Shown here: positions 23,201 through 61,939 of the stretch, piece by piece
Position numbering within the stretch: position 1 is the first letter of the stretch
Layout: each line of letters starts with the position of its first letter
The notes under the pieces: generated by a model
What the model was told of the DNA's origin: nothing
Database searches by the model: none
The model's input: only the letters and a program-made list of their open reading frames with translations
DNA from: Pecten maximus
Taxonomy: Eukaryota
Assembly: GCF_902652985.1 (NCBI RefSeq)
Contig: NC_047023.1
Span: forward strand, 35,402,001 to 35,466,000
DNA: 64,000 bases
Direction: 5' to 3'
Position numbers and translations under genes: made by a program

Positions 23201-26200
23201 CTCTGAAACCAAGCAATGGATATTGCTCATATTTGCCTGGTAGCATCACTATGAGATGGGGATTCAAAATTGTACAAATGGTGAGGCTGACCCCACGGGG
23301 GCCTGAGGGGCGGGGCCAAATGTGGTCAATTGGGCTATATTGATATAAACGACTTCTCCTCTGAAACCGAGCAATGGATATTGCTCATATTTGCCTGGTA
23401 GCATCAGTATGGGGTGGGGATTCAAAATTGTACAAATGGTAAGGCTGACCCCACGGGGGCCTGAGGGGCGGGGCCAAGAAGGGTCAATTTGGCTATATTG
23501 ATATGAACAACTTCTCCTCTGAAATCAAGCAATAGATATTGCTCGTATTTGACTGTGAGCATCCCTTTGGGGCCAGGATTCAGAATTGTACAAATGGTGG
23601 GGCCGACCTACCTGGGGCCTGAGGGGCGGGGCCAAAAGGGGTCAATTTGGCTAAATTGATATAAACAACTTCTTCTCTGAAACTAAGCTATGGATATCGC
23701 TCATATTTGCCTGCTTCAACCCCCGGGGTAGGGATTCAAAACTGTATAAATGACAGAGCTGACCCCCGGGGAGCTAAGAGGCGGGGCCAAAAGGGGTCAT
23801 TTTGGCAGAATTGATATAAACAACTTCTTCTCTGAAACTAAGCAATGGATATATCACTCACATTTGTATGGTAGCATGGTCATGGGGTGGGGATTCAAAA
23901 TTGTACAAATTTTGGGGTTGACCCCCCCCCCCCCAGGGGACTTATATAATTAGGGGTGGGGCCAAAAAGGGTCAATTTGGCTAAATTGATATGAACAACT
24001 TCTATGAAACAGCTCATATTTGACTGGTAGCATCCTTTTGGTTAGGGATTCAAAATTTTATAACGGAAGGAACTGACCCCAGGGTGCAGAGGGCGGGGTC
24101 AAAAGGGGTCAATTGGTTTAAACAACTTCTTTTCTGAAACTAAACAATGGATATCGCTCACATTTGTGTGGTAGCATCTGGGGTTGCGCCAAAAGTCCAT
24201 TTCATTTCATGGATTAATGCATTTTTGGCAGAAAAACCTCACGTACCCATATAAAATGCCTATGATATATTGACATAGCAATACCAGTGACAATATACTT
24301 AATCATCATTCTTGTTTCATATCTCATGAAATCCAGGTGAGCGATACAGGCCCTCTGGGCCTCTTGTTACAAAATTTGGTGTGGAACATCGTTGGAGGAG
24401 GACAATCATATTTTATATAAACGAGGCTGGTCTGACCCCTGGGGCCAGAGGGGCTGGGCCCCAAATAGGGAACTTTGGTGGATATTTGCTATAAAATCCT
24501 ACTCCTCCTTTACCCTTTGGTGGATTACAACTAAATATGGTGTGAAACCTCAATGGGGGAGGGTGGTCATATTTTATGTAAATGAGGCTGGTGTGGCCCC
24601 TGGGGCCAGAGGGGCGGGGCCCCAAAAGGGGAACTTTGGTGAATTTTTGCTATAAATCCTACTTCTCTCTAACCCTTGGGTGGATTAATACGAAATATGG
24701 TGTGAAACATCCTTTGGGAAGGGTGGTCATATTTTATATAAACGAGGCTAGTGTGACCCCTGGGGCCTGAGGGGCAGGGCAAGGTGAATATTTGCTGTTA
24801 AATCCTAATCCTCCCTAACCTTTTGGTGGATTACAACCTAATTTGATGTGAAACATAAGGTGACGGCAATCATATTTTTTAATGAGACAGGTTTGACCCC
24901 TGGGGAAAAAAAGATGGGGCAAAAGGAGCGCTTAGGTTAAACATTTCTTAAAAATGCAATTCCTCCTTAATGCCTTAATTGATTACAACCATATTTAGTA
25001 TGAAACATCATTAGGGAAAGGCAATCCTAATTGATATAAATGAGTCTTGTCTGACCCATTGGGACAGAGGGGCATGCCCCAAAAATGGGAACTTGGCTAA
25101 AATTTTGCTTTATGATGCTGCTCTTCCTGGACAAGCTAAATGGATAAAAACCAAATTTGATCTAAAACATAACTGGCTGCGATAGATAATTTATGGTAAT
25201 AATGCTGGATTGAGGGGTGTGTCCCTGCTGTAAGTGTAAGTGTTTGTCAGATGACTGTTAAGGCCCATGGGCCTCTTGTTCAGTCTTTACATCGAAATAT
25301 TGTCTTGTTCAGTCTTTATAACTAGTCAAGTCAGAATCTATGATATTCATGTGAAACATATATAAGTTTTCAGGTAAACAACTCTTATTAAGTGAATGCA
25401 TGAATTAAAACAATCTACCTCATATTGTTTCATTTTCATTGTCGCAATCATTATTAGGGAGATATTGAGGATTTTTTTCCTCCAACTCATTATCGTACTG
25501 ATAATTATACCAATTTAAACATTCAAAAATGTTTGGGTTTTTTTTCTCACTACAAATGCTATAGTTATATCAATGAGAACAGCCAATGTTTTTGCGAGAA
25601 TATATCTTCAACCCAATGTTTTTAAAAGAAAAATCTCTTACACAAGTTATGAAAATATATTTCAAAATATAAGATTTTTCTTTGATGGTGTAATCATTAA
25701 AATGGTGTACATTTTTTTGTATTTGCTGCCAGTCACTGTCAATTACAGTCTAAATAAATGGCGAAAATGAAGTGACAATATTTGGCAATATTTTGTGCAA
25801 GCTAATAAGGTAGAATAAACAAATCATAAGCCAATGTATAGGACACCAAATAAAGCTGGTCTGTCACACATGTTTGATAGGCAGTATAAGTTAAGCAATG
25901 AAAAGGCCTATTGCATACAAAATTCTATTTAAAATTAATCTACTTTATAATTATATACTTTATGTTGTAAGTGTAATGGTAGTTTAAAATTTTTTTTTTG
26001 TTTCAGGAAAAGGTTCTAGAAAGGTGTATCTAGGTATGATTGATTCGCCAGCAGATGGAGTTTCTATAAGGCTAGACTGTGCTGTACGGGCCATGGCTAT
26101 GGATACCGAATACCTATATATAGCATCCGATTCCATTGCCTGTGCTTACGACCTTCAGAAATTTGAACTTCACCAGACATTTCAAGGTCATCTACGTTGT

Positions 26201-26953
26201 CTTCTGTCCATTGATGGAGACTGTCGTAGTGGGCTAGTGGTGACGGGTTCGGCAGATTGTACAGTGAAGCTATGGAATCTTCACACTGCTGAAATACTTT
26301 TCTCCTCCCAACTTCACCATGTCGGCTGGGTATGTCATGTTCAAATTTTAATGGATTTAAACTCTTCAACAAAAGCTTTTATGGCATATGATTCTAATGC
26401 TTATTTAAGTGTATGGACCGTACATAAATCAGAAGATTCTGAAGTCTGGACAGTTCGGCATGTTGATGATCTACTAACAGACATGAAAAGGATTCCGTTG
26501 CCATCATATGACAAATGTGGATTTTTTGTGTTCCAAAAACCAGTCGATGTATATCAAACAAATTTCTGTATCGTAACTTACTATAATCTAGTCTTACAAA
26601 ATCTGGAGAATCACAAATACAAGCTAAAATTCATCAAAAATATTGATATTAATCATCGTTTTCAAGACATGCTAGCTATAGGTGACAGGTTTACGATATA
26701 TACTCAAGTTATACACGAGAAGATTTCCGTATGTGTATACGACTTACATGGACAATGGCTACTGATGAGAATTCCCTTACCAGAACCTCTTCCAGTTGGA
26801 AGTTGGACAGTGTACTTGGAGAAACACGATTGGTTGGGTGGTTTTACTAGTACCAACCTTCCTCAAAGCCTGTTCTATGTTATGGATCCTGAAAACATTC
26901 ATAAACAGGAGACCAAGCTCCGACATCAGATCAACAGACAAGTTAATGTATAG
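17206..26953 (+). CDS. FBXW2: F-box/WD40 repeat protein, FBXW2-like (divergent), ~482 aa; exons 17206-17457, 20214-20463, 26007-26953
   Basis: N-terminus MESQDFSKWLNS..TLDELLQLCGPEQL..DFLTCLPNEISDQILCYLD..CCLVSKSWN closely parallels FBXW2; WD motif GHLRCLLSID..VVTGSADCTVKLWNL; GT-AG junctions in phases 0 and 1 keep the frame. Orthologue versus paralogue is uncertain. Confidence 0.85.
17809..18432 (+). mobile_element. HINE-like element with ~146 bp central repeats (~2.5 copies)
   Basis: 5' TTAGCTCACCTGCCCGAAGGGCAAGTGAGCT, CGTC microsatellite, 3' CAGGTGAGC plus hairpin AGGCCCATTGGGCCT-CTTGTT. Confidence 0.85.
18483..19248. mobile_element. Tc1/mariner-type MITE (~766 bp) with TA TSD
   Basis: TA|CTGTATACCTGGTAATTTTCGCCCCA ... 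TGGGGCGAAAATTACCAGGTATACAG|TA: perfect ~26-bp TIRs, no transposase ORF. Confidence 0.9.
20610..21884 (+). mobile_element. HINE-like element with a 155-bp satellite-like core (~6.3 copies)
   Basis: 5' TTAGCCCACCATCATCAGATGGTGGGCTA, (GTCC)n tract, units at 20731, 20886, 21041, 21196 and onward, 3' ATGGTGGGC plus hairpin AAGATCCCTCTGGGATCT-CTTGTT. Confidence 0.9.
21883..25280 (+). mobile_element. HINE-like element with ~162-165 bp core repeats, interrupted by a nested element at 22777-24368
   Basis: 5' TTAGGTCATCTGACCCAAAGGGTCAGGATGACCTA, CGTC tract, 3' CAGATGAC..AGGCCCATGGGCCTCTTGTT; the repeat register resumes after the insertion. Confidence 0.88.
22777..24368 (+). mobile_element. Nested HINE-like element with ~158 bp GC-box-containing repeats
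   Basis: 5' ATTAGCTCACCTGGTCCGAAGGACCAAGGTGAGCT, (CGTC)n tract, 3' CAGGTGAGCGATACAGGCCCTCTGGGCCTCTTGTT; inserted at TT of the host GATT|ACAA. Confidence 0.9.
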
Positions 26954-34200: not shown

Positions 34201-36833
34201 TATTTTTTCTAAGGTGGCCATGAATGTGAGACTTGTCTGTTTCTCTAGGGCGGCCATGATTGAGAGACTTTTCTATGTTAATCTAAGGTGGCCATGATTG
34301 AGAGACTTTTCTATGTTTCTCTAGGGTGGCCATGAATCTGATACTTGTCTATTTTTTCTAAGGTGGCCATGAATGTGAGACTTGTCTGTTTCTCTAGGGC
34401 GGCCATGATTGAGAGACTTTTCTATGTTAATCTAAGGTGGCCATGATTGAGAGACTTTTCTATGTTTATCTAAGGTGGCCATGATTGAGAGACTTTTCTA
34501 TGTTTATCTAAGGTGGCCATGATTGAGAGACTTTTCTATGTTTATCTAAGGTGACCATGATTGAGAGACTTTTCTATGTTTATCTAAGGTGGCCATGATT
34601 GAGAGACTTTTCCATATGTTTATCTAAGGTGGCCATGATTGAGAGACTTTTCCATATGTTTATCTAAGGTGGCCATGATTGAGAGACTTTTCTATGTTTC
34701 TCTAAGGTGGCCACGAATGTAAAGACTTGTCTGTTTCTCTAGGGTGGCCACGAATGTAAAGACTTGTCTGTTAATTCTCTAATAATAAAGGAGCCATGAA
34801 TGTGATACCTGTCTACGTTTCTCTAAAGTGGCCATAAATTTCTACCTTTCTGTGAAGAGCAGCCGACCATGAACGTGAAAGAATTTTCTTGATATAAAAC
34901 TGTCTGAATGTGAAAGAGTTTCCTCCCCTTCTTTGAAATGGCCTTCTATAGCTAGTCAATTACATAATCAGTATCACTACTATGGCCATCAACTATAATT
35001 AATTTGTTTAGCTCTAACCATAAGCACTAATTTTATCTGGCTTGTGACTGATGTTACAATTGATCTGCAAAAAAAAAAAAAAAATAGTTGGGAACCTCAT
35101 TACTCCATAACATGGTATAAAGTTTCAGGCTCTATATTCTATGAGGAGTTGACCCTGATCAATCTACACAGTACACTGCAGCAGATTTAAAGCATGTAAA
35201 CTTCAAAGTAGTTTGCTTAAGGAAGTTCAATGTAATGATCCACCCTTATATTGGCCAAAGGGATTGGTGGTGTTATGATGACATCACATTTGTCTTTCCT
35301 CTACCAAACAATGTGATTTTCACCAGATACAGGTTCACTCCAACAGTGCCCTCAGCAACTTTTCAAAATCATTGTAAAATAATTGATTTGTCAATCTTGG
35401 CTTTAATGGTACCTATACTAACCTTGCCAGAGTTTCTTCAGCCCACATTAGTCTTAATGATTCTAACTATAACTGTTTTAATATACACAGTACTATATTA
35501 TACTAATATAACATATGTATGGATTATTATATATAGTCAAGAATCGGAAGTCTAGATCCAGACTGACTGTCACTCTAGATAGCCAAATAATGGAAAATTT
35601 TAGTTCCCATCAACACTGTGGAGAAGGTTGACGGACTTGGAAGGCGTAGGATTAGCATCTCCTTGCATTAGGTGGTGCGGCGACGCACTTGGAGGACGCG
35701 CAAAGCGTGAATATGGCGAGAGATATGAGCATGAACTTTTTTTTATCTGATCTCGGAGAGAGATATCAATAGCTAATTTAATTTTAATCAATTTTTGCAT
35801 GTTCAGCAATAACTACTCTATCGTGTGCTCCCTCCGAGTACTCCGCGTCACTTAATACAAGGGGACGCAAGTCCTGTGCCCTAAAAGTCTGTCGACCTTC
35901 TCCACAGTGATCAATAAGATGAGTTTGGAATTGGAGGAAACTTACAAAAGACATTGCTAGCCTAAATCAGACATCTGTCTTTCAAAACCTGATGTATGGT
36001 CTTGCGGCCAGAGGGAAAGTGGTCAATATGAATGTTTTTCTTACCATAAGACCTTGGCGAGGTACAACCCTGCGACCTGGACCTTGGGAAGATAAGGCAT
36101 TTCTGGTTGGAGTTGTACCGGCAGAAGGTGGTGCAGGTCTACGCAGCTTGGCACTGTATACCGAAGAGGAGACATTGGAGCTTGATGCATTACTCGAAAC
36201 AGACGGGTGAAGTGAGTTAGGATTCATATCATTTATTGGAGGAAGTGGGGCATTCTTAGCAAATAAATTTTCTCTCGAAGAAGTACCAGAGGCAACTCTG
36301 CATTGAGGAGGCATTGTTCTTGTATTGGAATTTGCCCTGCTGTTAGAAGTTGTCCTTGTATTAGAACTTGCTCTGGACTGTACAGAATTGCCAGGGACCA
36401 TAATAACTGACGACCCATTAACGAGAGATGCTTCTGCAGGATTAAGCTCTTTATTGTCTTCTTTTTTCTGTAGCATCATTCTTAGTTTTCTGTTGACATT
36501 GTAAGCCTCCTGAAGCAGCACGTCTGTATCTTCTTCAGAAAGATCAACTGTTTCAAGCATTCGCAGCACTTCATCTGGGTCAGTCAGATTAAATTTGAAC
36601 ATTTCATTTGGTTTTACAGCTTCAGAAGAATCTGGTCCTTCGTCAGAAACAACTGTTTTTTCGTCATCCTTTCCCGTCAAATCAGTTCCTCGGCTTTCGA
36701 GATCAATGCCCGATTCGGGCGACAAACTATCATTTAATCGGCGGGGTGAATCAGTTTCGTCGTCGATTTCAAGTTCATGCCTTTCTGATAGAGAGGAAAG
36801 TTCTCTTCCGTCGCCATCAACAACTTCTGCCAT
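31206..36833 (-). CDS. Uncharacterised ~292-aa protein (acidic N-terminus, short helical segment, S/P/N-rich region, C-terminal ERPPWNDRF); exons 36833-36045 and 31295-31206
   Basis: 263-codon first exon ends ATG|GTAAGA (phase 0); ttatttacag| acceptor at 31295 gives PNKKPKSAKKIEQVPITERPPWNDRFSQD*. Intermediate exons are not excluded. Confidence 0.75.
32271..32650 (-). mobile_element. Truncated HINE-like remnant with ~148 bp repeats (GTGACCTTGA motif)
   Basis: 3'-type hairpin TCCACGAAAGTGGA at ~32278; two diverged units at ~32351 and ~32497. Confidence 0.6.
33720..34850. repeat. Minisatellite, 38-40 bp unit (AAGGTGGTCATAAATGCGCGACTTGGCCATGTTTCTGT and variants), ~28 copies
   Basis: Tandem units seen directly, with block-wise variants. 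Confidence 0.95.
35614..35909. mobile_element. 296-bp MITE with CACTGTG...CACAGTG ends, ~80-bp imperfect TIRs and 5-bp TSD ATCAA (Transib/RAG-like signature)
   Basis: ATCAA|CACTGTGGAGAAGGTTGACGGACTT ... AAGTCTGTCGACCTTCTCCACAGTG|ATCAA. Confidence 0.85.
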
Positions 36834-38479
36834 CTTTGCTGACGGAACACTGTTTAAGTTGCTGCTGAAATGTAGGATATCACATTTTTGAAAGTGTTGA
36901 CAAAATCTTTGATGTCATTCGTAACGAAGTCGTTAGTCTCTGTAAAACAAACTCTTGTCGACTACACAGAGAAATACGTAGTAATTAAGCGTCTGATTGA
37001 GAGAGAGACTATGTAAGAATGCCACCTGTCGAGTGGATCGAGCAACGGTATACGAAACTATTAGGCCTACCGTATCCTATGCGAGTGTAATACTGTATTT
37101 TAGTACTGTACTAAAAAAATATTGCGAAAAACACGTGTATAGATTAATATGTTCTCACATTAAGCAAAAAACATCGCCATGTAGTTTAGGAAAAAGAAAA
37201 AAAATCGCACCGGTGTCTACAAATTTTATTCTAGCTTTGCCACCTACAACAAAACTACAGACGGCGGCAAACGCAAATGATAAGGTAGCCCTAGATTGTT
37301 TTAACCGAACAATAACTTTGTTCGCTAATCATTCGTTGAAATGGATATCTGATCAGTTTTGTATGACACATTTACCTGATTTATCTGATCCTCTGTCTCT
37401 GTAAGCGTATTTGCTTATTGACCTCCGTAGTTTAGACCACTGGCATGTTTTTAATCATGAACTTGGCAAAATAATGTCTCGACATCCTGAGGTGTTTTTA
37501 ATAAGGTATGTGCTTACCTATTTGTGGTCTCTTTTAGGACAACAAAGAACTGAAATATGGAAAACAATTAGATTTTGTTTTGTTTGTGATAATTCCCAAA
37601 TCTGACTTAAAAGAGATTTTATTGTGAATATACATGTCATTCAATAAAAAATAGAACCCCCAATAGTGAATAACTTTAATTTCATCTTGCTTTTGGATAA
37701 CTATGTGGAATAGGTCAATTTTCATTCCAACTTCTTTCTTGTTCATTCAGAGGCCTGTAATCTCTGTGCTAAAAATGGGTAGTTTCCCCAAACTTAGACT
37801 AATCCCTGTCATGCATTCCCTGTGGAATGTCTTTGACTTTGTCAAGAAACCATACAACAAATTTTTACATTACTTTGTGAAAATCCTAAACCTACCTATG
37901 GTAAGGATCAGAACACAGAACCTTGTCACTATCATATGGCTAAGTATATATTCTTGAGTTTTCTGTTTACCCAATGACTGTTTAAGGTTAATAGTTATGA
38001 GAGTAAACAGAACACTCGGGCATATGTACAAAAATAATACAATACTCTTCTCGACTGCCCTGCATGTGATCAGAATGTGTACTTACTCAAGGAGGGGATC
38101 ACAACCCTGGCAAATGATGGATCAATGGGACCACACTTAAATGGTTGTGTGATGCAAAAGACAAATTCTCAAAAGGCATGATAAAAATTGGTGGTAATTA
38201 TCAGTATATGTAGTAAGGCTACAAGAAAGAATCTAAGAAAGACCTAGATGTCACTCTTCAATGTCTAAGGTGTGAGAGAACCTGACATGAGAGAAAAGAA
38301 ATGGATAGAAAACATTTATTGGTTTCTCCCCCCAAAAGTAAGGGTTTGTGCCAAAGAAATTGTGAGGATTAGAATCTCTGAAGAAGGGGCTAATGGGTTG
38401 GGCATTAGTAGTCATTGTATGTACAAGACACAAGGCAGTGAAAGTACATTTTTAACTTCTGAGAAATTTTGTGTCATCC

Positions 38480-41400
38480 ATGGTGGAAGTGAGTAATGCC
38501 ATTTCTAGATTCTATACAATATGACCTACATGTAGCTGCCTCAATTCTAATGAACTTACTGGTATCAAACAAATGCAGAATATTTGAATATAATGATTCA
38601 ACTTATATTACAGATGGAAAAAGTAAGCAAGTATGAGATTTCCCCATTGATTGCTCTTCTCAACATGATAAAAGTCAACTACTTTGGAAAAACTGAAATT
38701 TACAAAACACTGCTAGCAGTTCTTTGTGATCATGATACAAGAAATCCAGCTATTAAGGAAAAGGTACATGTACCATATTTATTTCTGGGCAATATTAAGA
38801 ACTTATTTTCAATCATGAAATAATTTGTGAAACATTATAAAGAGTTTAATATTTGATAAAAATTGTATTCATGAAAATTTAAAAAAAGGTACAGCCAATT
38901 TCTATAGGAGTCAGTCTTGCAAGTATATACCTATCTTATCAAATGATACTTATTTATTGTCTGGTCAAACACCTGAGCACTGTACATTTAAACAAAATTT
39001 AGGTTGAAGTTTTTGGTTAAGAAGCCAAGATTGTCATTCATTAGTAGTTAAGGGATGATTATAATGAAAGTTATTTTGATGAGAAATATCAATAGAGGAC
39101 CATGAAAACTAAAGGAAACTTTAGGCATGTTTTGAAATTTGACAAGTTCTCAATGTGGTTGTCTGGATCTGTAGAGCAATTCTTCATGTGTATTTACTTT
39201 CATTCACAGACAAAACACTACATACAGTTGTTACTAGCTGACCATCAGGATTTGGCCAGAAGTCTAATCTCCTTCCTCCCTGGAGAAGCAAATGCTGACA
39301 GCATCCCTCTAGGCTTAAGTCCTATCACCAACACACCTGCTGGCAACCTTAAAAGGTCTTAGACTTTTAGGTTTTATGTTATATTAAGTATATTCAACTG
39401 CTTAATATGGTCCCCTGAGACAAAGTCTCTAGTGGTGTTCGTCGTAAACAATTCAGATTATAGATTTCTTCTGAATAACCAAGAGGCCCAGGGTCATTAT
39501 ATTGTGTCAGTAGCATGCTAAGATGAATGACCTTGACTTACTTTAGAGGTCACATGAGTCAAATGTGTCAAAATCTTTAAACAACTAAACGAGATGCCCT
39601 GGATCATGATATTAATTGGATCAAATTATTAGCATGCTTGGATAACACATTAAAATATTAAATCAAAGGAATGATGACCTTCAAGGTCATAGGGGCCAAT
39701 ATATATTCTTTCCAAAAATATTATTAAATTTGCACACCTACCACAATTTTTCTTCATTTTATTTTAGAAATCGTTGTAAACAACATTACTGATTTAAAAA
39801 AATCTAGCTACCAATCCTTATAAATTAACTTAATTAAGCAATATTACAACTATTGGTCAACTTGTATTGTTCTTAAAAATTCTTGTACATACTTCGAAGT
39901 GAAGTATTTGTTATCTCTATGAACTAAAATTGTATGTTTTATTTTGTTTACAGACATAAGAAGAGCAGACATAAAAGTAAAAAGAAAACCAAACAAAAAT
40001 CAAAACAGTCTAGCATAGTGAATAGAGTGCTGTTAGAGACATTGCCTCCTGATTTGGCAACACCACCAAAGCAAAGTGCAAAGATGGTGGTAGACTTCCC
40101 AGATGGAACACCAAAGAAAGAAAACAAATCCATAACTCCTAAAATATCTGAAACACTTACTCCTAAAACAGAATCAGATTCTCCCCGACCTTCACTTCCT
40201 GAGGAAGTGTGCAACACAAAGAACATTTCCTCCAGATGCAATTCTGACTCTGAAATTATCAGAAGCAAAAGTCCAGTCTTCTCCACAAGCAGCAGAAAGC
40301 CTGTAGTATTTACCACAGCAGTTTATAATGAGAATAAAAGTTATCCTTTGCCTTTTTCTATGTTTGACAGCTGTGGCTTTCCTTTGAAAAACTTACCAGG
40401 GGTATGTGAAACTGGGCAAAAGTTTTCTCCACGTGTAAGTCACAGGCAGGCATCAGTAAGTGTTGCAGATACTGGAACACTTATGACCAAGAAAAGTATT
40501 TCTCAGCAATGTATGGCTGAAGCTAAAACATCGGAAGTGCCAAGTTTAACATCAGCCATTCCCACCAAGCCTGGTAATAGTTGTGGCCTACCATTAGCAA
40601 TTCCACCATACCAGAGTACTTCAAGAATGATGCCGTTATATAACCGAAGTAGAAACGCATTTAATGTAGGTGATCAGGCAAATTACTCAACAACATCTCT
40701 TGAACAAAATATGAATTCTGGACTTGAACATCTGCCATTTTGTAACACTAGTGAGTCAGCGGTCCATGGAACTGAGCCTACAGTTCTTATACCAGCGACT
40801 CTGCCCCATAAAGCCAGTTTGAGCCAAATGAGTGGCTTACCACACAACTTTATCCACAGACCAGAGCCTCTGCTGATTGGACACACTCCAAAAGTTTACA
40901 ACCCAGTACAATGGGCCACAAAGTTTGAACAGTTCTCTACCATGACAGTTGGGCGAACATTCCACAACAGTCCTGCTGGTCACCTCCAACCTCCTCCTGT
41001 TGCCAAGTTACCGTGTTCCACAGGTCTCGCTTCCCATAATCCTCCAGTTCCACATCTGTACACGCTCCCAAAAACATCAGCATCATTTGTTCCAAGTCAG
41101 GTCGAACAACATTTATCTCAGCTATCCCTTACCAAGAGTCCACTGCATTATTCTATGGCCCAGACGTCTCATTCTGCCGGTAAAAAAATCTACCTTGGAA
41201 CTAATTCTAATCTCTCAGCCTTCCCATATACCAGGCAGATGGTTCTTCCAGATGGTCAAACCCAGAATCTGTACTTAAAGCGATCATCTGTCAATATACC
41301 TGCAGACAGTAATGGAATGTCAGATATTGAGAATTTACAGAAAGGCATGGCGACTGGTGCAAGTTACAGTTATCCAGATGAACAGGGAAATATAAGTTTT

Positions 41401-41724
41401 CCAAACCAGAATGTGATAGATATGAATACTGGGGTACCAATGACTGTACCAGTCGAGAGTAGTATGCTTCAACAGTTAGGAGATACAAGACAAAGTCTCA
41501 AAGCTCCAGTGCCCTTCTTTATTTCTGATCATCACTTGTCCAAGCTTCAACATCCTGATAACATGGTGGATTCCTTAGGAGGTCGTGGCGACGCAGATAT
41601 CCTGGAAACCTTGCCAAAGCCAAAAAAAGTTATAATGTCAGCCAACTCAAGTGTAAGGAAAAAGCTGCGATTAACACCTAAAAGTTCTATACATCAGGAG
41701 AATGCAGCTTCCTACGATACATAA
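38480..41724 (+). CDS. Protein with one N-terminal PAH-like (Sin3-type paired amphipathic helix) domain, a basic NLS-like stretch and a long S/P/T-rich tail, ~690 aa; exons (38480-38488?), 38614-38763, 39210-39355, 39954-41724
   Basis: The spliced frame is continuous (phases 0, 0, 2). ALLNMIKVNYFGKTEIYKTLLAVL..IQLLLADHQDLARSLISFLP fits the PAH pattern; the 596-codon ORF covers the last exon. The N-terminus and the weak AAG|GTCTTA donor are uncertain. Confidence 0.75.
39440..39700 (+). mobile_element. Decayed copy of the 17809-18432 HINE core family
   Basis: TTCTTCTGAATAACCAAGAGGCCCAGGG..GTAGCATGCT..ATGACCTTGAC..GGTCACATG matches the repeat at 18036-18160. Confidence 0.6.
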
Positions 41725-43488
41725 TGTTTCTTACATTGCAAAGTTTCATATCTCCAGTTATTGTCTATTTTCACAAAAATGTCCATATTACTAATTTACT
41801 GTCTACTGTAAGCTACATCATTAGTAATAACTAACATGTTCCCAATTATGTCTGTTTTAATTGCATGTTATTCATACAGTCATGTACCTATCTATAATTG
41901 CAAGCTACATACATGTAGCAAGTATTTTTGTGAAATTAATGTTACTATAATTTAACATAATAATTATGTATTTACAATATATGTTGGTTTTTATTGCCTG
42001 TCATTTATACTTATCATCTGTCTACATTTTCATTTCTCATATTTAAGACTGTTATATGTATTAATATATATGTTTATGCATTGTATATATATTTTTAAAT
42101 TACTCTTGTAAATGATACTAAATTTTTAAAAATGTTTCAAATAGTTTCATGAAATTTTTATGACAACAAAAAGACTGATTATTCACTGAATATGTGAAGT
42201 GAACCATAATTGGGATATTGCGGGAATCATCTTCATACTTACTGGCCTGTAAAATATTTAAAGTGTTAAAAATCTTCTCGATATATTTGTCGGGTACCAG
42301 TGAAATTGCACATTAAGTGTACCTCCAGTTAAACTAGATATGCTGTACCATAAATAGGTCACTGTGACTTTGACATGAAAGTCCAAGCAGTACATAATTA
42401 TGAACCAGTCTTCAGAGTAAAACTCACAGGTTGTATGCACTTTATAAATAAGACGTTACATAGTATCAACATGAACCAGAATATTTCTACCAAAATGAGC
42501 TAAATGTAAAAACAATGTATGTAGATAGTTTATCACTTCTAACATTTAACAACAGCAAAAATATTTTTAAAGTAATTTATTTCTGAATCATAGTGCTATT
42601 ATTTGTACATATATATGTAAGTCTGAAAACAAGTTCACATCACAAATGAAAAAAAACCTGTCAAATATGAAGCTTTCAATCATCTGTACAAACACATCCC
42701 ACAATCTTCCACGCAATAGACATTCAGAATCCATTTTATCCATTTTTACAACTATACATTGAAACACTATCACACAAAGCTAATCAGACATACTGACTTA
42801 AAATAAGGTTGTATTCATACACGAGTGTTTACAAATCAATCACGAATGCCAACATTTATATTTTTACATCAAAACATGTCTTAAAGGACACTGGTATCTT
42901 CAAAAAAATCTGGTCTCTTCCAACACAATTCCATATCATGACTTACTTTGGAAACTATCCTGTAAGTCCTGTCTGTTCTGACACCTATGCGTACATGATA
43001 TCCTTCCCACTGTATAAACAGTGTATAAACAGCTAGTGTAACTAGCAATAGACTAGAATGAATAATACTCATTCAAAAGTTTGTTTACAGCTAAATATAT
43101 ATATGTTTCTATGATATGATTTTGGTTCATAACCAAAGTCAAAAAAATATTTCTGCAGGATTCTTTCTGTCATTGGACCAAGTATAATAATGTCATGTAC
43201 TGGCACACGTATACAGGTAGTCTGTTTTGGAAGATGATTTGAGGGATGCAGTGGTTAAGTCTGACAACAGATTTTACTGGGTTTCATGATAAAAGTTGAA
43301 TTACTGTACAGTATATTTTGATATTTACAATAACAATAACTGTTCTTTGTTCGGTTTTCTCTTTTTGTACATATCAATAAAACTTAAAATTATTGATGCC
43401 TAGCTTCAGTTCATCATTAACACTCAGAAACATCAGACGTTGTCTCTATTTTTAGTATAAAGGTTAATATCTGCTGCCATATATACAG

Positions 43489-43579
43489 TCATCTTCACTA
43501 ACCAAGTGTGTTCAATATGATGCTCACCTTGCTGAAAAGGAGAGCATCATATTGGAACACACTTGGCTAGTGAATATGA
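43489..43579. other. ~91-nt near-perfect inverted repeat (hairpin); candidate pre-miRNA/hpRNA or fold-back remnant
   Basis: TCATCTTCACTAACCAAGTGTGTTCAATATGATGCTCACCTT pairs with AAGGAGAGCATCATATTGGAACACACTTGGCTAGTGAATATGA around a ~6-nt loop. Confidence 0.6.
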
Positions 43580-46568
43580 TGTACAGTGTACATATGTATT
43601 TTAGATTCAGAATGCTGATTTTCCAAAGTTTCGTAACTTTGAATTACATTTAATTTATACCTTGATCAGGTTCCAAAAAAAAAAAAAAAAACGGTTTAAT
43701 GATTTTATGTTCATCTAAGTAGGAGGGTATTCAAACGACTTCTTACAGAATGTACACCAACTATGGTCACTTCCATTTATCACAGTCTGAATGTTTAACT
43801 GATTATAATGGAGTTGATTAGTTATGAAATAAGGACAGACCTAGTCGTCTTATGTAGATAAATACTTTCAAGGCTTCAAGGCCTGTATTAAAATCTTAGG
43901 ACAGAGACCTAGTGGACTTATGTAGCTTTTACACAAGCCTTGATAAATACTTTCAAGGCATCAAGGCCTGTATTAAAATCTGCATCGTTAATTACTTCCC
44001 TACCTGCTGTTTAACATACTTGTTCTCATTCATTGATACTCTTCATGTTGAATTGTGGCATACTGTTTAATAATTACTTGTAAGCAAAGACATTCAAATG
44101 TATTTTATTGAAATAACTAGTGCTGTCTTACCTTTCATGGTTTTCAGTGAATCAAAATTGTTTTGAAAAGTGGTTTCATAATTAAATTTTTTACTTTTTA
44201 AAAAAAAAAAATATAGATATGTAAAATTTGTTGCAGATTTTACAACATGTTTCTTGTTAACTGCTGTAACTGTTATATAAGTAAGAAAATAAGTAATGAT
44301 GCATTCTTACCAAGCATGACAGCAGTATGGAAAAAAATTCCACTAGACAAAAAAATTTAAAAAGTCAATATTGACTTTATAACACATTTTAAAATAACCG
44401 GCCATGGTATTTGATTTTCTATACATTTAATGTGTTTTGAATACAAATAACATTTAATACAGGCAAGTGTAAAATAATACCAGATGTATGGTATATCTGA
44501 ACACTGGACGTATACACCCACAAAAACACCAACACAAGATTTATTGTGTGAATAAGACATAGAGAATAGTTGTGTATAATAATTGTGAAATTACTGAAGG
44601 TTGTACAAAATAAATATTTGTAAATAGAACATTTCTTCTACTTTATATTTCTATCTGAAAAACTAATTTAAAGTCAAACATGTACTACCAGTTTCTCTGA
44701 TTTATTAAATACAGTCATTAGTTTCATGCAGGGATCAATTTGTTTTAAATAACTCTATATCGCTACATGTATACAGTCTGTACATATAATACAAACAAAC
44801 AAACAAAAAAAACCCAAAAAACTCAGTTCTAGCAATGCACATGTATATTCTTCATGTACAAGATAATCATTTTCTCAACATGATGAAGTTCTATATCAAT
44901 GATTCAATTCAGATAACATGAAAAAAGCTAGATTCACAACATTTGAATTAATTGAGATCCTCCGACCTCAAAAAATTAATACTTTATATATTTTAAGAAC
45001 AAAAATACTTTTTATATATATTTATAAAGTACCTGTTGTTTTATCATAGTAACATTTAAAGAAATCATCACAGAATATTGCAATTTTAAATTAAATCTAT
45101 CACATATCAAAAATACTCAATACATGTATATAAGCATGTAAATACTTGGAGAACTTTAAATCAGATTGATTATACCAGGTATACAGTACAATACCAAAAA
45201 TATTTGGTCACAATGGCGATGTGTTTGTGTTGTCAAACCACCTGTTATAAATTGCCTTGACCTTGTCACAGACTTTAAATGTGATCTGACTGAAGAGACA
45301 CCTTGCAAAGTATTGAATGTATACAAGTGTGTAATATTGTTGTACATGTATTTAAGTTTTTTTTATCAATGTGTGAACACGTCATTATGACCAAATACTT
45401 GTGGTACTGGTGAAACACAATACAACATAAAGAATGATGTTTTTAAAATGAATTCACAGTGTTTGGTTCCCTTACTTTTAAAGATACATTTACACAATGA
45501 AAGTGATTTGAATAACAAAATATCATATATGAAGTTCTCTTCACTTTCCCTTAGACTAAAAATTATCTCGATGCCATGTCAACATAAGAAAACAACATGC
45601 TTAACAATCACAGTACAAGTACATCCCAATAAATTGGCATAAATACCTACTTCTCTAATGATACAAGAGTTGTGGGACTACAAGAACATGTTTGATTTCC
45701 TCCTTAGTTGATCAGCTATTAAATATAAGAAACTAGCCTTGGGAGTAATGATGTTTTTTTTCCCTTTTTTCAAAATAATATTTTGGAGACAAAAATTTTC
45801 TAAATTCTTTCTAAAGCTACTTTTGCATATATACATGTATTTACAATCTAATACATGTACATGCACTTGGATTTATTTTGAAACTTATTAAAACTGACCA
45901 CCATTATGAAGTTATTAAATTAACTGAGACAAAAAACATAGAAGAGGTATGTAAAGTTGTTTAACTTATGAACGGAATTTGTGAACAGTTAATACGGGTA
46001 TTCATAGAACAAGAGAGGTAATTAAGTTTGGCATAAACCATAGTCACCACGTATTTCTCTCATATACGATTTCACTGCTTTGCCGATGAAAACCTATCTC
46101 GTCATTTAGACGGCTATTGTCTTTTAAAAATAGCAATAATGAAGGACGACAATGATAATGGCTTTCCTAGTAATATATCTACCTAACAGGAGGAATCAAG
46201 GTTTGTCTAACAGGGACCACTAAAGAAGTGATTTAATTTAAACAGTACCATGATTTTTTATGATAAGCCACATTTTCTCCATCACCCACTCTGCATAGAA
46301 TTTCTTTATTTCTGGAGTCCTTCAGTATATGATATATCTAATTTATTTTACTGCTAACTGTACTAGTAATAGCCCTATTTATAAACAGACTGTAGTTTGT
46401 TCACTTTCATATGATTTAAGAAATATACTGAAAATTCTTCATATTTTCACAAAACGTGTCGCCTTTAAAATTCATTTCAAATACCTTTCATACATGAACA
46501 TTTATTTAATTTTGTACATGTGCCCTTGCAATCCTTGATCGAATGAGATTAAGTCCATGGTTAACGCT

Positions 46569-61939
<15,371 letters not shown>

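What the first reader, a model, noticed from the sequence alone, without database searches (positions are those of the whole stretch)
38480..41724. Stand-alone single-PAH-domain protein hidden across small exons
Seen: splicing 38614-38763, 39210-39355 and 39954-41724 gives one frame. The first ~85 aa fit a Sin3-type PAH four-helix pattern (..MIKVNYFGKTEIYKTLLAVL..IQLLLADHQDLARSLISFLP), followed by RHKKSRHKSKKKTKQK and ~580 aa of low-complexity, probably disordered sequence ending in more basic motifs. Known: PAH domains occur in Sin3 (several copies plus an HDAC-interaction domain) and GON4L, and bind SID helices of repressors. Inference: one PAH with no recognisable HID could be a lineage-specific nuclear adaptor or a Sin3 decoy. 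The domain is invisible in the ORF track because it is split across exons.
Basis: partly seen in the sequence, partly recalled or inferred. Interest (0 to 1): 0.7.

Follow-up and report, generated by a model that had tools for sequence, protein, structure and literature searches.

The report
Mollusc-wide single-PAH protein family
This is a real, spliced scallop gene with unstudied relatives in clams, snails and octopuses; its protein starts with one domain predicted to fold like a docking module of the gene-silencing scaffold Sin3 but lacks Sin3's deacetylase-binding part, so it likely works as a nuclear adaptor with partners of its own.

Summary
Observation confirmed. The three exons splice at GT..AG sites into a 688-aa frame identical to RefSeq XP_033749454.1 (Pecten maximus, 'uncharacterized'). 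One transcript-type contig bridges all three introns, including an unnoticed 5' UTR exon. Residues 6-74 model as a four-helix bundle (pLDDT above 90). Foldseek's top hits and all 12 PDB sequence hits of the scallop profile are Sin3 PAH domains, PAH2 nearest, though no member reaches Pfam's PAH cut-off. True Sin3, with its HID, lies on another chromosome.

New here: the protein belongs to a family in bivalves, gastropods and cephalopods. It is one clade (99/99) and shares an intron position. The tail is predicted disordered but is not low-complexity, and it carries a second conserved module, an FPY..LPDG hairpin (aa 517-542). Most SID-pocket positions are kept, but two floor residues are swapped (Ala307 to Phe/Leu, Tyr310 to Leu). 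That favours an adaptor with changed specificity over a plain Sin3 decoy.

No partner, location or function is shown. PAH proteins without a HID are already known as a kind. Verdict: a new, undescribed variant of a known kind; interest moderate.

The parts
36830..37505 (.). CpG-rich stretch between this gene's first exon and the head-to-head neighbour on the minus strand; likely a shared promoter (inferred)
   Evidence: CpG observed/expected 1.17 against 0.0-0.37 in the gene body and 0.36 in the window; contigs of the neighbour reach 36929 and this gene's contig starts at 37288
37288..37505 (+). Exon 1, 5' UTR (5' end is that of the contig, true start not known); five short upstream ATG frames of 3-14 codons
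   Evidence: joint 37505/38614 GT..AG in X1; in-frame stops and uATGs
38614..38763 (+). Exon 2, codons 1-50: start Met, helices 1-2 and the start of helix 3 of the PAH-like domain; ends at a phase-0 intron shared by the family
   Evidence: read-through Val at the same offset in 16 of 17 single-exon fragments
39210..39355 (+). Exon 3, codons 51-99: rest of helix 3, helix 4, FLP end of the domain, linker
39954..41724 (+). Exon 4 coding part, codons 99-688 and stop: basic cluster and long predicted-disordered tail
38629..39281 (+). PAH-like four-helix domain, aa 6-74, split by intron 2
   Evidence: AF2 helices 6-22, 27-38, 45-58, 63-71, pLDDT 91-96 over aa 11-70; Foldseek and PDB profile hits to Sin3 PAH; coordinates
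39351..40005 (+). Basic cluster aa 98-116 (12 K/R, no D/E), NLS-like (inferred), split by intron 3
   Evidence: 68-89% identical among scallops; a basic run at about the same place in Mytilus, Potamilus, Lottia and unnamed P0028
41206..41283 (+). Conserved tail motif aa 517-542, NL[ST]xFPYxxxxxLPDG, predicted beta-hairpin (strands 525-529, 535-539)
   Evidence: found above the best of 1800 shuffles in 8 of 18 non-scallop relatives; pLDDT 83 over aa 531-540
41620..41676 (+). C-terminal basic motif aa 655-673 (KPKK..SVRKKLRLTP), second NLS-like signal (inferred); shared with Mytilus
41725..43381 (+). 3' UTR as far as the X1 contig runs; AATAAA at 43376; the last about 750 nt may overlap the 3' UTR of the convergent zinc-transporter gene
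   Evidence: contig 40243-43381; hexamer scan; contigs give no strand, so the end is inferred

Best explanation
This is an intact, spliced four-exon gene whose 688-aa protein likely acts as a nuclear adaptor: a single N-terminal domain predicted to fold like Sin3's PAH2 would grip an amphipathic helix of one partner, and a conserved predicted beta-hairpin in the disordered tail would bind another. Shown: the gene, its splicing, the family across three mollusc classes, the lack of a HID, and a separate full Sin3 on another chromosome. Predicted: the fold of the domain and of the hairpin. Inferred: origin by an old partial duplication of Sin3 PAH2 before the mollusc classes split; nuclear import by the basic clusters; a retained but re-shaped cleft (Ala307 to Phe/Leu, Tyr310 to Leu) that selects partners other than Mad/Mnt-type SIDs; and HID-independent coupling to chromatin co-regulators through tail motifs.
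For: Fold: four helices at pLDDT above 90 with an 18-row alignment. Foldseek ranks 1-9 (domain model) and 1-8 (full model) are all Sin3 PAH, best 6XAW, TM 0.75-0.81 by target, rmsd 2.4-2.7 A. Sequence: all 12 PDB hits of the 4-scallop profile are Sin3 PAH2 (best E 0.005). The top 13 of 20 hits of the 14-member profile are Sin3 (best E 4.6e-6 summed over two repeats, 4e-4 for isolated PAH2). ESM Atlas features: 0.90, 202 of 256 shared, PAH clusters. Family profile on scallop Sin3: PAH2 19.3 bits, PAH1 12.0, partial PAH3 under 5. Family: 32 of 38 hits among 1.84 billion representatives; one clade 99/99 against 13 Sin3-type repeats; shared intron. Selection: domain 87-88% and hairpin 81-97% identical among scallops against 47-66% for the rest of the tail; 10 of 11 coding differences synonymous. 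Pocket: of 17 positions listed for SIN3A PAH2 in PMC8657803 (passages seen), K315, Y325, K326, L329, L332, Y335, V311, F304, F376, F379 and L380 are kept in class in most of 18 rows. Sin3 PAH and HID are on C17, this gene on C9. No second copy of exon 2 or of the hairpin in the genome search.
Against: No member reaches Pfam's PAH cut-off (best E 0.0017; 16.8 bits against 21.3 for Octopus). No Foldseek hit has E under 0.001, and VIA-align Z values (6.7-8.7 for PAH, 6.3-6.7 for HHD domains) are within the range of common helical bundles. The tree does not resolve PAH2 against PAH1 ancestry beyond weak support, and the family's stem is long (1.87). The hairpin is absent from the annotated Octopus, Solemya, Batillaria and two unnamed proteins and weak in heterodont clams; basic clusters are missing from several members. 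Nothing here measures location, partner or activity. Splicing rests on one contig of one run plus the RefSeq model and orthologue frames.
Confidence: 0.55

Rival explanations
1. Sin3 decoy: the domain binds the same SID helices as Sin3 PAH2 (Mad/Mnt, HBP1, TGIF types) and, lacking a HID, shields those repressors from Sin3-HDAC, like the role proposed for mouse Sin3B-293.
For: PAH2 is the nearest repeat; most cleft residues are kept in class; no HID. A scallop SID-type exon exists (one exact pattern match on C8). The antagonist role of Sin3B-293 is stated as a proposal in PMC3786298 (passages).
Against: Ala307, a pocket-floor residue (PMC8657803), is Phe 10, Leu 6, Met 1, Gln 1 in 18 rows; Tyr310 is Leu in 13 and never aromatic; His333 is mostly Cys; Gln336 is mostly Asp. 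Single conservative changes in this cleft alter affinity and specificity (PMC7948954 passage). The family stem is long while Sin3 PAH2 is near-invariant. A pure decoy would not need the conserved tail hairpin.
Confidence: 0.2
2. Non-transcriptional scaffold: the domain works like the HHD members of the same fold group (harmonin, CCM2, RTEL1), in the cytoplasm or in DNA or RNA metabolism rather than in transcription.
For: HHD domains tie with PAH in VIA-align (Z 6.3-6.7, rmsd 2.7-3.4). Some members have no basic cluster. Earlier scan notes report Sin3-derived PAH domains reused on non-chromatin proteins (unchecked).
Against: Sequence hits are to Sin3 only, with no HHD among the PDB profile hits; the model has four helices, not five; two basic clusters are conserved in scallops and mussels.
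Confidence: 0.13
3. Closed or self-contained module: the bulkier floor residue shuts the cleft, or the tail hairpin folds back onto the domain, and the protein binds through another surface (for example the conserved L37-x-D39-Y/F40 and Y54-I-x-L-L-L58 face).
For: Bulky residue at the Ala307 position; family-specific near-invariant D39 and Y54 that Sin3 lacks; the hairpin is the only other confident part of the full model.
Against: The loss of Tyr310 would offset the bulk; edge residues K20, Y/F30 and K/R31 stay conserved as in an open cleft; several members have the domain without the hairpin.
Confidence: 0.12

Closest known systems
Sin3 PAH2 domain (Pfam PF02671; PDB 6XAW yeast Sin3-Ume6, 1G1E and 1E91 mammalian Sin3-Mad1)
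   Same: Four-helix bundle of the same length and register, about 24-26% identity, conserved KxxY/F, (I/V)YK, LxxY/F and FLP landmarks; a phase-0 intron in the H2-H3 loop one codon from that of scallop Sin3 PAH2.
   Different: One copy, at the very N-terminus; no PAH1, PAH3, HID or Sin3 C-terminal region; pocket-floor swap; below Pfam's cut-off; lacks the intron that scallop Sin3 has after helix 1 of PAH2; long disordered tail with its own motif.
Mouse Sin3B-293 short isoform (PMC3786298, passages seen)
   Same: PAH without the HDAC-binding domain; proposed to antagonise Sin3/HDAC repression.
   Different: Sin3B-293 is a splice form of Sin3B with unchanged PAH1 and PAH2; this is a separate, old gene with one diverged PAH and a 600-aa unrelated tail.
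GON4L (PMC11538285, passages seen)
   Same: Nuclear regulator that carries PAH domains outside Sin3 and has no HID among its listed domains.
   Different: GON4L is 2241 aa with two PAH domains at 1624-1777 and a Myb-like domain; this protein is 688 aa, has one N-terminal PAH-like domain and no Myb/SANT hit.
HHD and other alpha-alpha-hub domains (harmonin-N, CCM2, RTEL1 HHD2, TAFH; PMC7948954, passages and section 7 seen)
   Same: Same helical-hairpin bundle; structural Z 4.9-6.7.
   Different: No sequence match to them; no fifth helix; no PDZ, helicase or other partner domain.

Membership tests
PAH domain (PF02671) | Four-helix bundle superposable on Sin3 PAH | tested here: met
   AF2 helices 6-22, 27-38, 45-58, 63-71; Foldseek top 8-9 all Sin3 PAH, prob up to 1.00 but E 0.035-0.13
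PAH domain (PF02671) | Score above Pfam's gathering threshold (21.3 bits) | tested here: not met
   No PAH hit for P0001; weak hits in 3 of 4 scallop domains and 4 of 14 other domains, best E 0.0017; Octopus 16.8 bits
PAH domain (PF02671) | Detectable sequence homology to Sin3 PAH repeats | tested here: met
   PDB profile searches E 4.6e-6 to 0.005; hhalign to a Sin3-type protein 82%, E 1e-5; 4 Sin3-type proteins among 38 hits
PAH domain (PF02671) | Hydrophobic H1-H2 cleft with the PAH2 pocket residues | tested here: inconclusive
   About 11 of 17 listed positions kept in class; A307, Y310, H333, Q336 changed and I308, Q339 variable; judged by alignment only, the cleft was not measured on the model
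PAH domain (PF02671) | Binds an amphipathic SID helix | not testable with these tools
   Needs a binding assay
Sin3 co-repressors | Three or more PAH repeats | tested here: not met
   One helical domain only in the full-length model; complete gene with UTRs on both sides
Sin3 co-repressors | HDAC-interaction domain (PF08295) | tested here: not met
   No hit in P0001-P0005 or 14 relatives; the genome's two PF08295 matches are on C17 next to the Sin3 PAH exons
GON4L / YY1AP1 | Tandem PAH1-PAH2 plus C-terminal Myb-like domain in a protein of about 2200 aa | tested here: not met
   688 aa, one domain, no Myb/SANT hit; architecture from PMC11538285. The scallop GON4L gene itself was not located.
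HHD (harmonin homology domain) | Fifth helix packing between H3 and H4 | tested here: inconclusive
   No fifth helix in the better model; a 3-residue turn at 79-81 in the weaker one; structural Z ties with PAH; no HHD sequence hit

The most novel reading that the evidence does not exclude
Molluscs built a second, HID-free transcriptional hub from Sin3's PAH2 before bivalves, gastropods and cephalopods split. Its re-shaped cleft reads a set of transcription-factor helices that Sin3 does not, and its tail routes them to other co-regulators through a new beta-hairpin motif and, in some lineages, CtBP-type PxDLS motifs. It would be a phylum-wide switch between Sin3/HDAC repression and another outcome.
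Probability: 0.2. Interest if true: 0.75.

Novelty: new variant of a known kind. Interest (0 to 1): 0.5.

Why it matters
If true, it adds an unrecognised, old, mollusc-wide nuclear regulator that Pfam misses in every member tested. It also gives a natural test of how PAH clefts change specificity: a reciprocal small-to-large and large-to-small swap on the pocket floor, kept across three classes. The tail hairpin is an undescribed conserved motif. [quoted passage not shown]

Tried and rejected
Pfam on the separate exons found nothing relevant, and the genome-wide PF02671 search did not ring at this locus. Complex prediction of aa 1-82 with the scallop SID-type exon (22 coding residues plus 8 in-frame upstream codons): no answer, score 0.02 against a mark of 0.34, alignment not used, controls not folded; it counts neither for nor against binding. 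The look-up of sequencing runs listed no holder on record as RNA. Seven of the 8 runs laid gave no contig across the junctions and covered mostly the 3' end; this says nothing on tissue or level. ESM Atlas on aa 495-555 gave only 0.76 to an ARID2 fragment, under the bar, rejected; its structure rows for both parts were all under the bar. The second genomic hit of the hairpin (C18, E 5.5) lies in a 44-codon frame between stops and was rejected as chance. P0021 and P0032 among the 38 hits are repeat-driven noise and score under 5 bits on the family profile. No SID-like helix pattern in the protein's own tail; no WRPW/eh1, SIM or LxCxE pattern in 18 members. The word-indexed searches found only scallops at first and 9 proteins with the wider profile. 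No oyster, annelid, brachiopod or other non-mollusc name appeared, but the one exhaustive search used a 4-scallop profile, so absence is not shown. Alternative 3' end of an upstream gene: rejected, since the contig joins exon 2 to a non-coding exon in a CpG-rich stretch and relatives start at the same Met. Papers: six locus tags, 0 papers; 'paired amphipathic helix' + 'single PAH domain', 1 paper, on C. elegans Sin3; two mollusc + PAH searches listed 15 and 12 papers, none with a PAH term (listings only); 'PAH2 A307V SID', 0 papers. PMC371107 and PMC2259223 are not held, so my recollection that enlarging Ala307 blocks Mad1 binding is unverified and is not used as evidence. No supplements were read.

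Full report
1. The observation. The product is identical to P0001, RefSeq XP_033749454.1, 'uncharacterized protein LOC117334105' of Pecten maximus. One 748-nt contig of run X1 bridges 38763/39210 and 39355/39954 and a further intron, 37505/38614, all GT..AG; overlapping contigs continue through the coding exon to 43381. This is 1 of 8 runs laid, and its RNA nature is a guess by the tool, but a contig without three GT..AG introns is a spliced form. The extra exon has in-frame stops, so Met 38614 is the start. Ten of 11 coding differences between X1 and the genome are synonymous. The stretch 36830-37505 is CpG-rich (1.17) while the gene body is depleted (0.0-0.37), which fits a promoter shared with the head-to-head neighbour (inference).

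2. The N-terminal domain. Pfam gives no PAH hit for P0001, and weak hits in 3 of 4 scallop domains and 4 of 14 other domains, none at the cut-off. Other tests agree on PAH. All 12 PDB sequences matched by the 4-scallop profile are Sin3 PAH2 (best E 0.005). With 14 diverse members the top 13 of 20 hits are Sin3 proteins (best E 4.6e-6). ESM Atlas features give PAH clusters at 0.90 with 202 of 256 shared. AlphaFold2 gave four helices, weakly with 4 rows (mean pLDDT 67) and confidently with 18 rows (91-96 over aa 11-70). Foldseek ranks Sin3 PAH structures first in both models (ranks 1-9 and 1-8; 6XAW, rmsd 2.4-2.7 A), though with E of 0.035 or more. VIA-align puts PAH at Z 6.7-8.7 and HHD domains at 6.3-6.7, all in the range of common bundles. 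So the structure alone places it among the alpha-alpha-hub folds, and the sequence places it with Sin3 PAH2.

3. It is not Sin3 or GON4L. The genome's PF02671 and PF08295 (HID) matches all lie on contig C17; this gene is on C9. The full model has no second helical domain, and no HID or Myb hit appears in 5 + 14 proteins scanned. Searches of the genome with exon 2 and with the hairpin returned this locus alone, apart from one E 5.5 match.

4. The family. An exhaustive profile search of 1.84 billion representatives gave 38 hits: 32 family members, 4 Sin3-type proteins and 2 repeat artefacts. I looked up 27 of the 32; 13 carry names and all are molluscs: Pecten, Mytilus, Solemya, Potamilus, Mercenaria, Mya, Mactra, Haliotis, Gigantopelta, Patella, Lottia, Batillaria and Octopus. 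Fourteen are unnamed. All are labelled uncharacterized, hypothetical or 'mucin-17-like'. In a 75-column tree of 18 members and 13 Sin3-type repeats, the family is one side of a branch at 99/99 with a long stem; its place next to PAH2 is only weakly supported. Fragments, P0005, P0059-P0062 and the two artefacts were left out of the tree. Sixteen of 17 single-exon fragments read into a Val (GT donor) at the same offset as Pecten's intron 2, and the 17th one residue earlier, so the intron is shared (inferred from protein fragments). Scallop Sin3 PAH2 has a phase-0 intron one codon before the aligned point, and another after helix 1 that this gene lacks: suggestive of origin from PAH2, not proof. 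The family profile scores scallop PAH2 19.3 bits and PAH1 12.0. The unnamed P0028/P0061 is the most divergent member and may be a non-mollusc; this is unknown.

5. The pocket. PMC8657803 (passages) lists the SIN3A PAH2 floor (A307, Y310, L332, Y335, E355, V358, F376, F379, L380) and edge (F304, I308, V311, K315, Y325, K326, L329, H333, Q336, Q339). I mapped 17 of these 19 through the register; E355 and V358 lie past a loop of different length and were left out. In 18 members L332 is Leu in 17, L380 Leu in 17, Y335 Tyr/Phe in 17, K315 Lys/Arg in 17, Y325 aromatic in 18 and K326 Lys/Arg in 14. But A307 is Phe or Leu in 16, Y310 is Leu in 13 and never aromatic, H333 is mostly Cys and Q336 mostly Asp. 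The review PMC7948954 (passages and section 7) says conservative exchanges in this cleft change affinity and specificity. I infer a kept but re-shaped cleft.

6. The tail. It is predicted disordered and 31% S/P/T, but not low-complexity. One motif, NL[ST]xFPYxxxxxLPDG (aa 517-542), is 81-97% identical among scallops against 47-66% for the flanks. A profile from four scallops finds it above the best of 1800 shuffles (8.9 bits) in 8 of 18 non-scallop relatives (three Mytilus, Potamilus, Haliotis, Gigantopelta, Patella, Lottia). It is visible but under that bar in Mercenaria and Dreissena, a trace in Mactra and Mya, and absent from six short or unnamed proteins. It is predicted as a beta-hairpin (pLDDT 83) and matches nothing known. 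Two basic clusters (aa 98-116, 655-673) are conserved in scallops and mussels. A PxDLS-like pattern, recalled as the CtBP-binding motif, occurs in 5 of 18 tails against 0.83 in shuffles (0 of 1000). It is absent from Pecten, and I chose the pattern after seeing two cases, so it is a lead only.

7. Mechanism. Most likely (0.55) a nuclear adaptor: the PAH-like domain binds a partner's amphipathic helix, the hairpin binds a second partner, and there is no HID. Shown: gene, splicing, family, conservation pattern, separate Sin3. Predicted: both folds. Inferred: origin, location, binding and role. Rivals: Sin3 decoy (0.2), non-transcriptional scaffold (0.13), closed or fold-back module (0.12).

8. 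Novelty. HID-less PAH proteins are known (PMC7948954 section 7; Sin3B-293 in PMC3786298; GON4L in PMC11538285; passages seen), and earlier scan notes list several other Sin3-derived PAH add-ons (unchecked). I found no paper on this family in searches by six locus tags and by mollusc + PAH terms; the library lacks most subscription journals. It is a new variant of a known kind: an undescribed family with its own pocket signature and tail motif. Interest 0.5.

Noticed in passing
window 35787-36914, minus strand: Head-to-head neighbour, first exon about 263 codons from the Met at 36833, acidic then S/N/P-rich with a short predicted coiled stretch; contigs in most runs laid; no convincing Pfam hit. 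About 360 nt separate its contig end (36929) from this gene's first exon.
   Followed up: partly
window about 46500-56650, minus strand; contigs 42622-44000: Convergent cation-efflux (zinc transporter, ZnT5-like by my recall of the family) gene with a His-rich loop; Pfam PF01545 on two exons. Deep contigs at 42622-44000 probably belong to its 3' UTR and overlap the last about 750 nt of the X1 contig of the PAH gene: a possible sense-antisense UTR overlap or a chimeric contig.
   Followed up: partly
window 25988-26953, plus strand: 321-codon open frame with WD40-like hits, all under cut-off (best E 1.6e-7).
   Followed up: no
window 39466-39584 (intron 3) and 35719-35824: Short dispersed repeats: contigs from many other transcripts match here at very high summed depth with loose ends on both sides.
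   Followed up: no
window about 49095-50690 and 52600-53450: Tandem arrays inside introns of the zinc-transporter gene; their translations repeat.
   Followed up: no
L007 1486-1551 (G000:C8, about 32.71 Mb): Exon starting MSLETLLEAAEFLE, the only exact genomic match to the SID-type pattern; likely scallop Mnt exon 1 (name recalled, not tested).
   Followed up: partly
P0014, P0015, P0022, P0062 C-termini: Heterodont clam members share their own C-terminal motif (SPYL..MLPD followed by an acidic end) in place of the basic C-terminal motif of scallops and mussels.
   Followed up: no
P0007, P0043, P0044 (Octopus, Argonauta): Cephalopod members are annotated at only 138-139 aa: the PAH-like domain plus a short tail ending in a C-H-x-C-like stretch, without the hairpin. 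Either a true mini-protein or an incomplete model.
   Followed up: no
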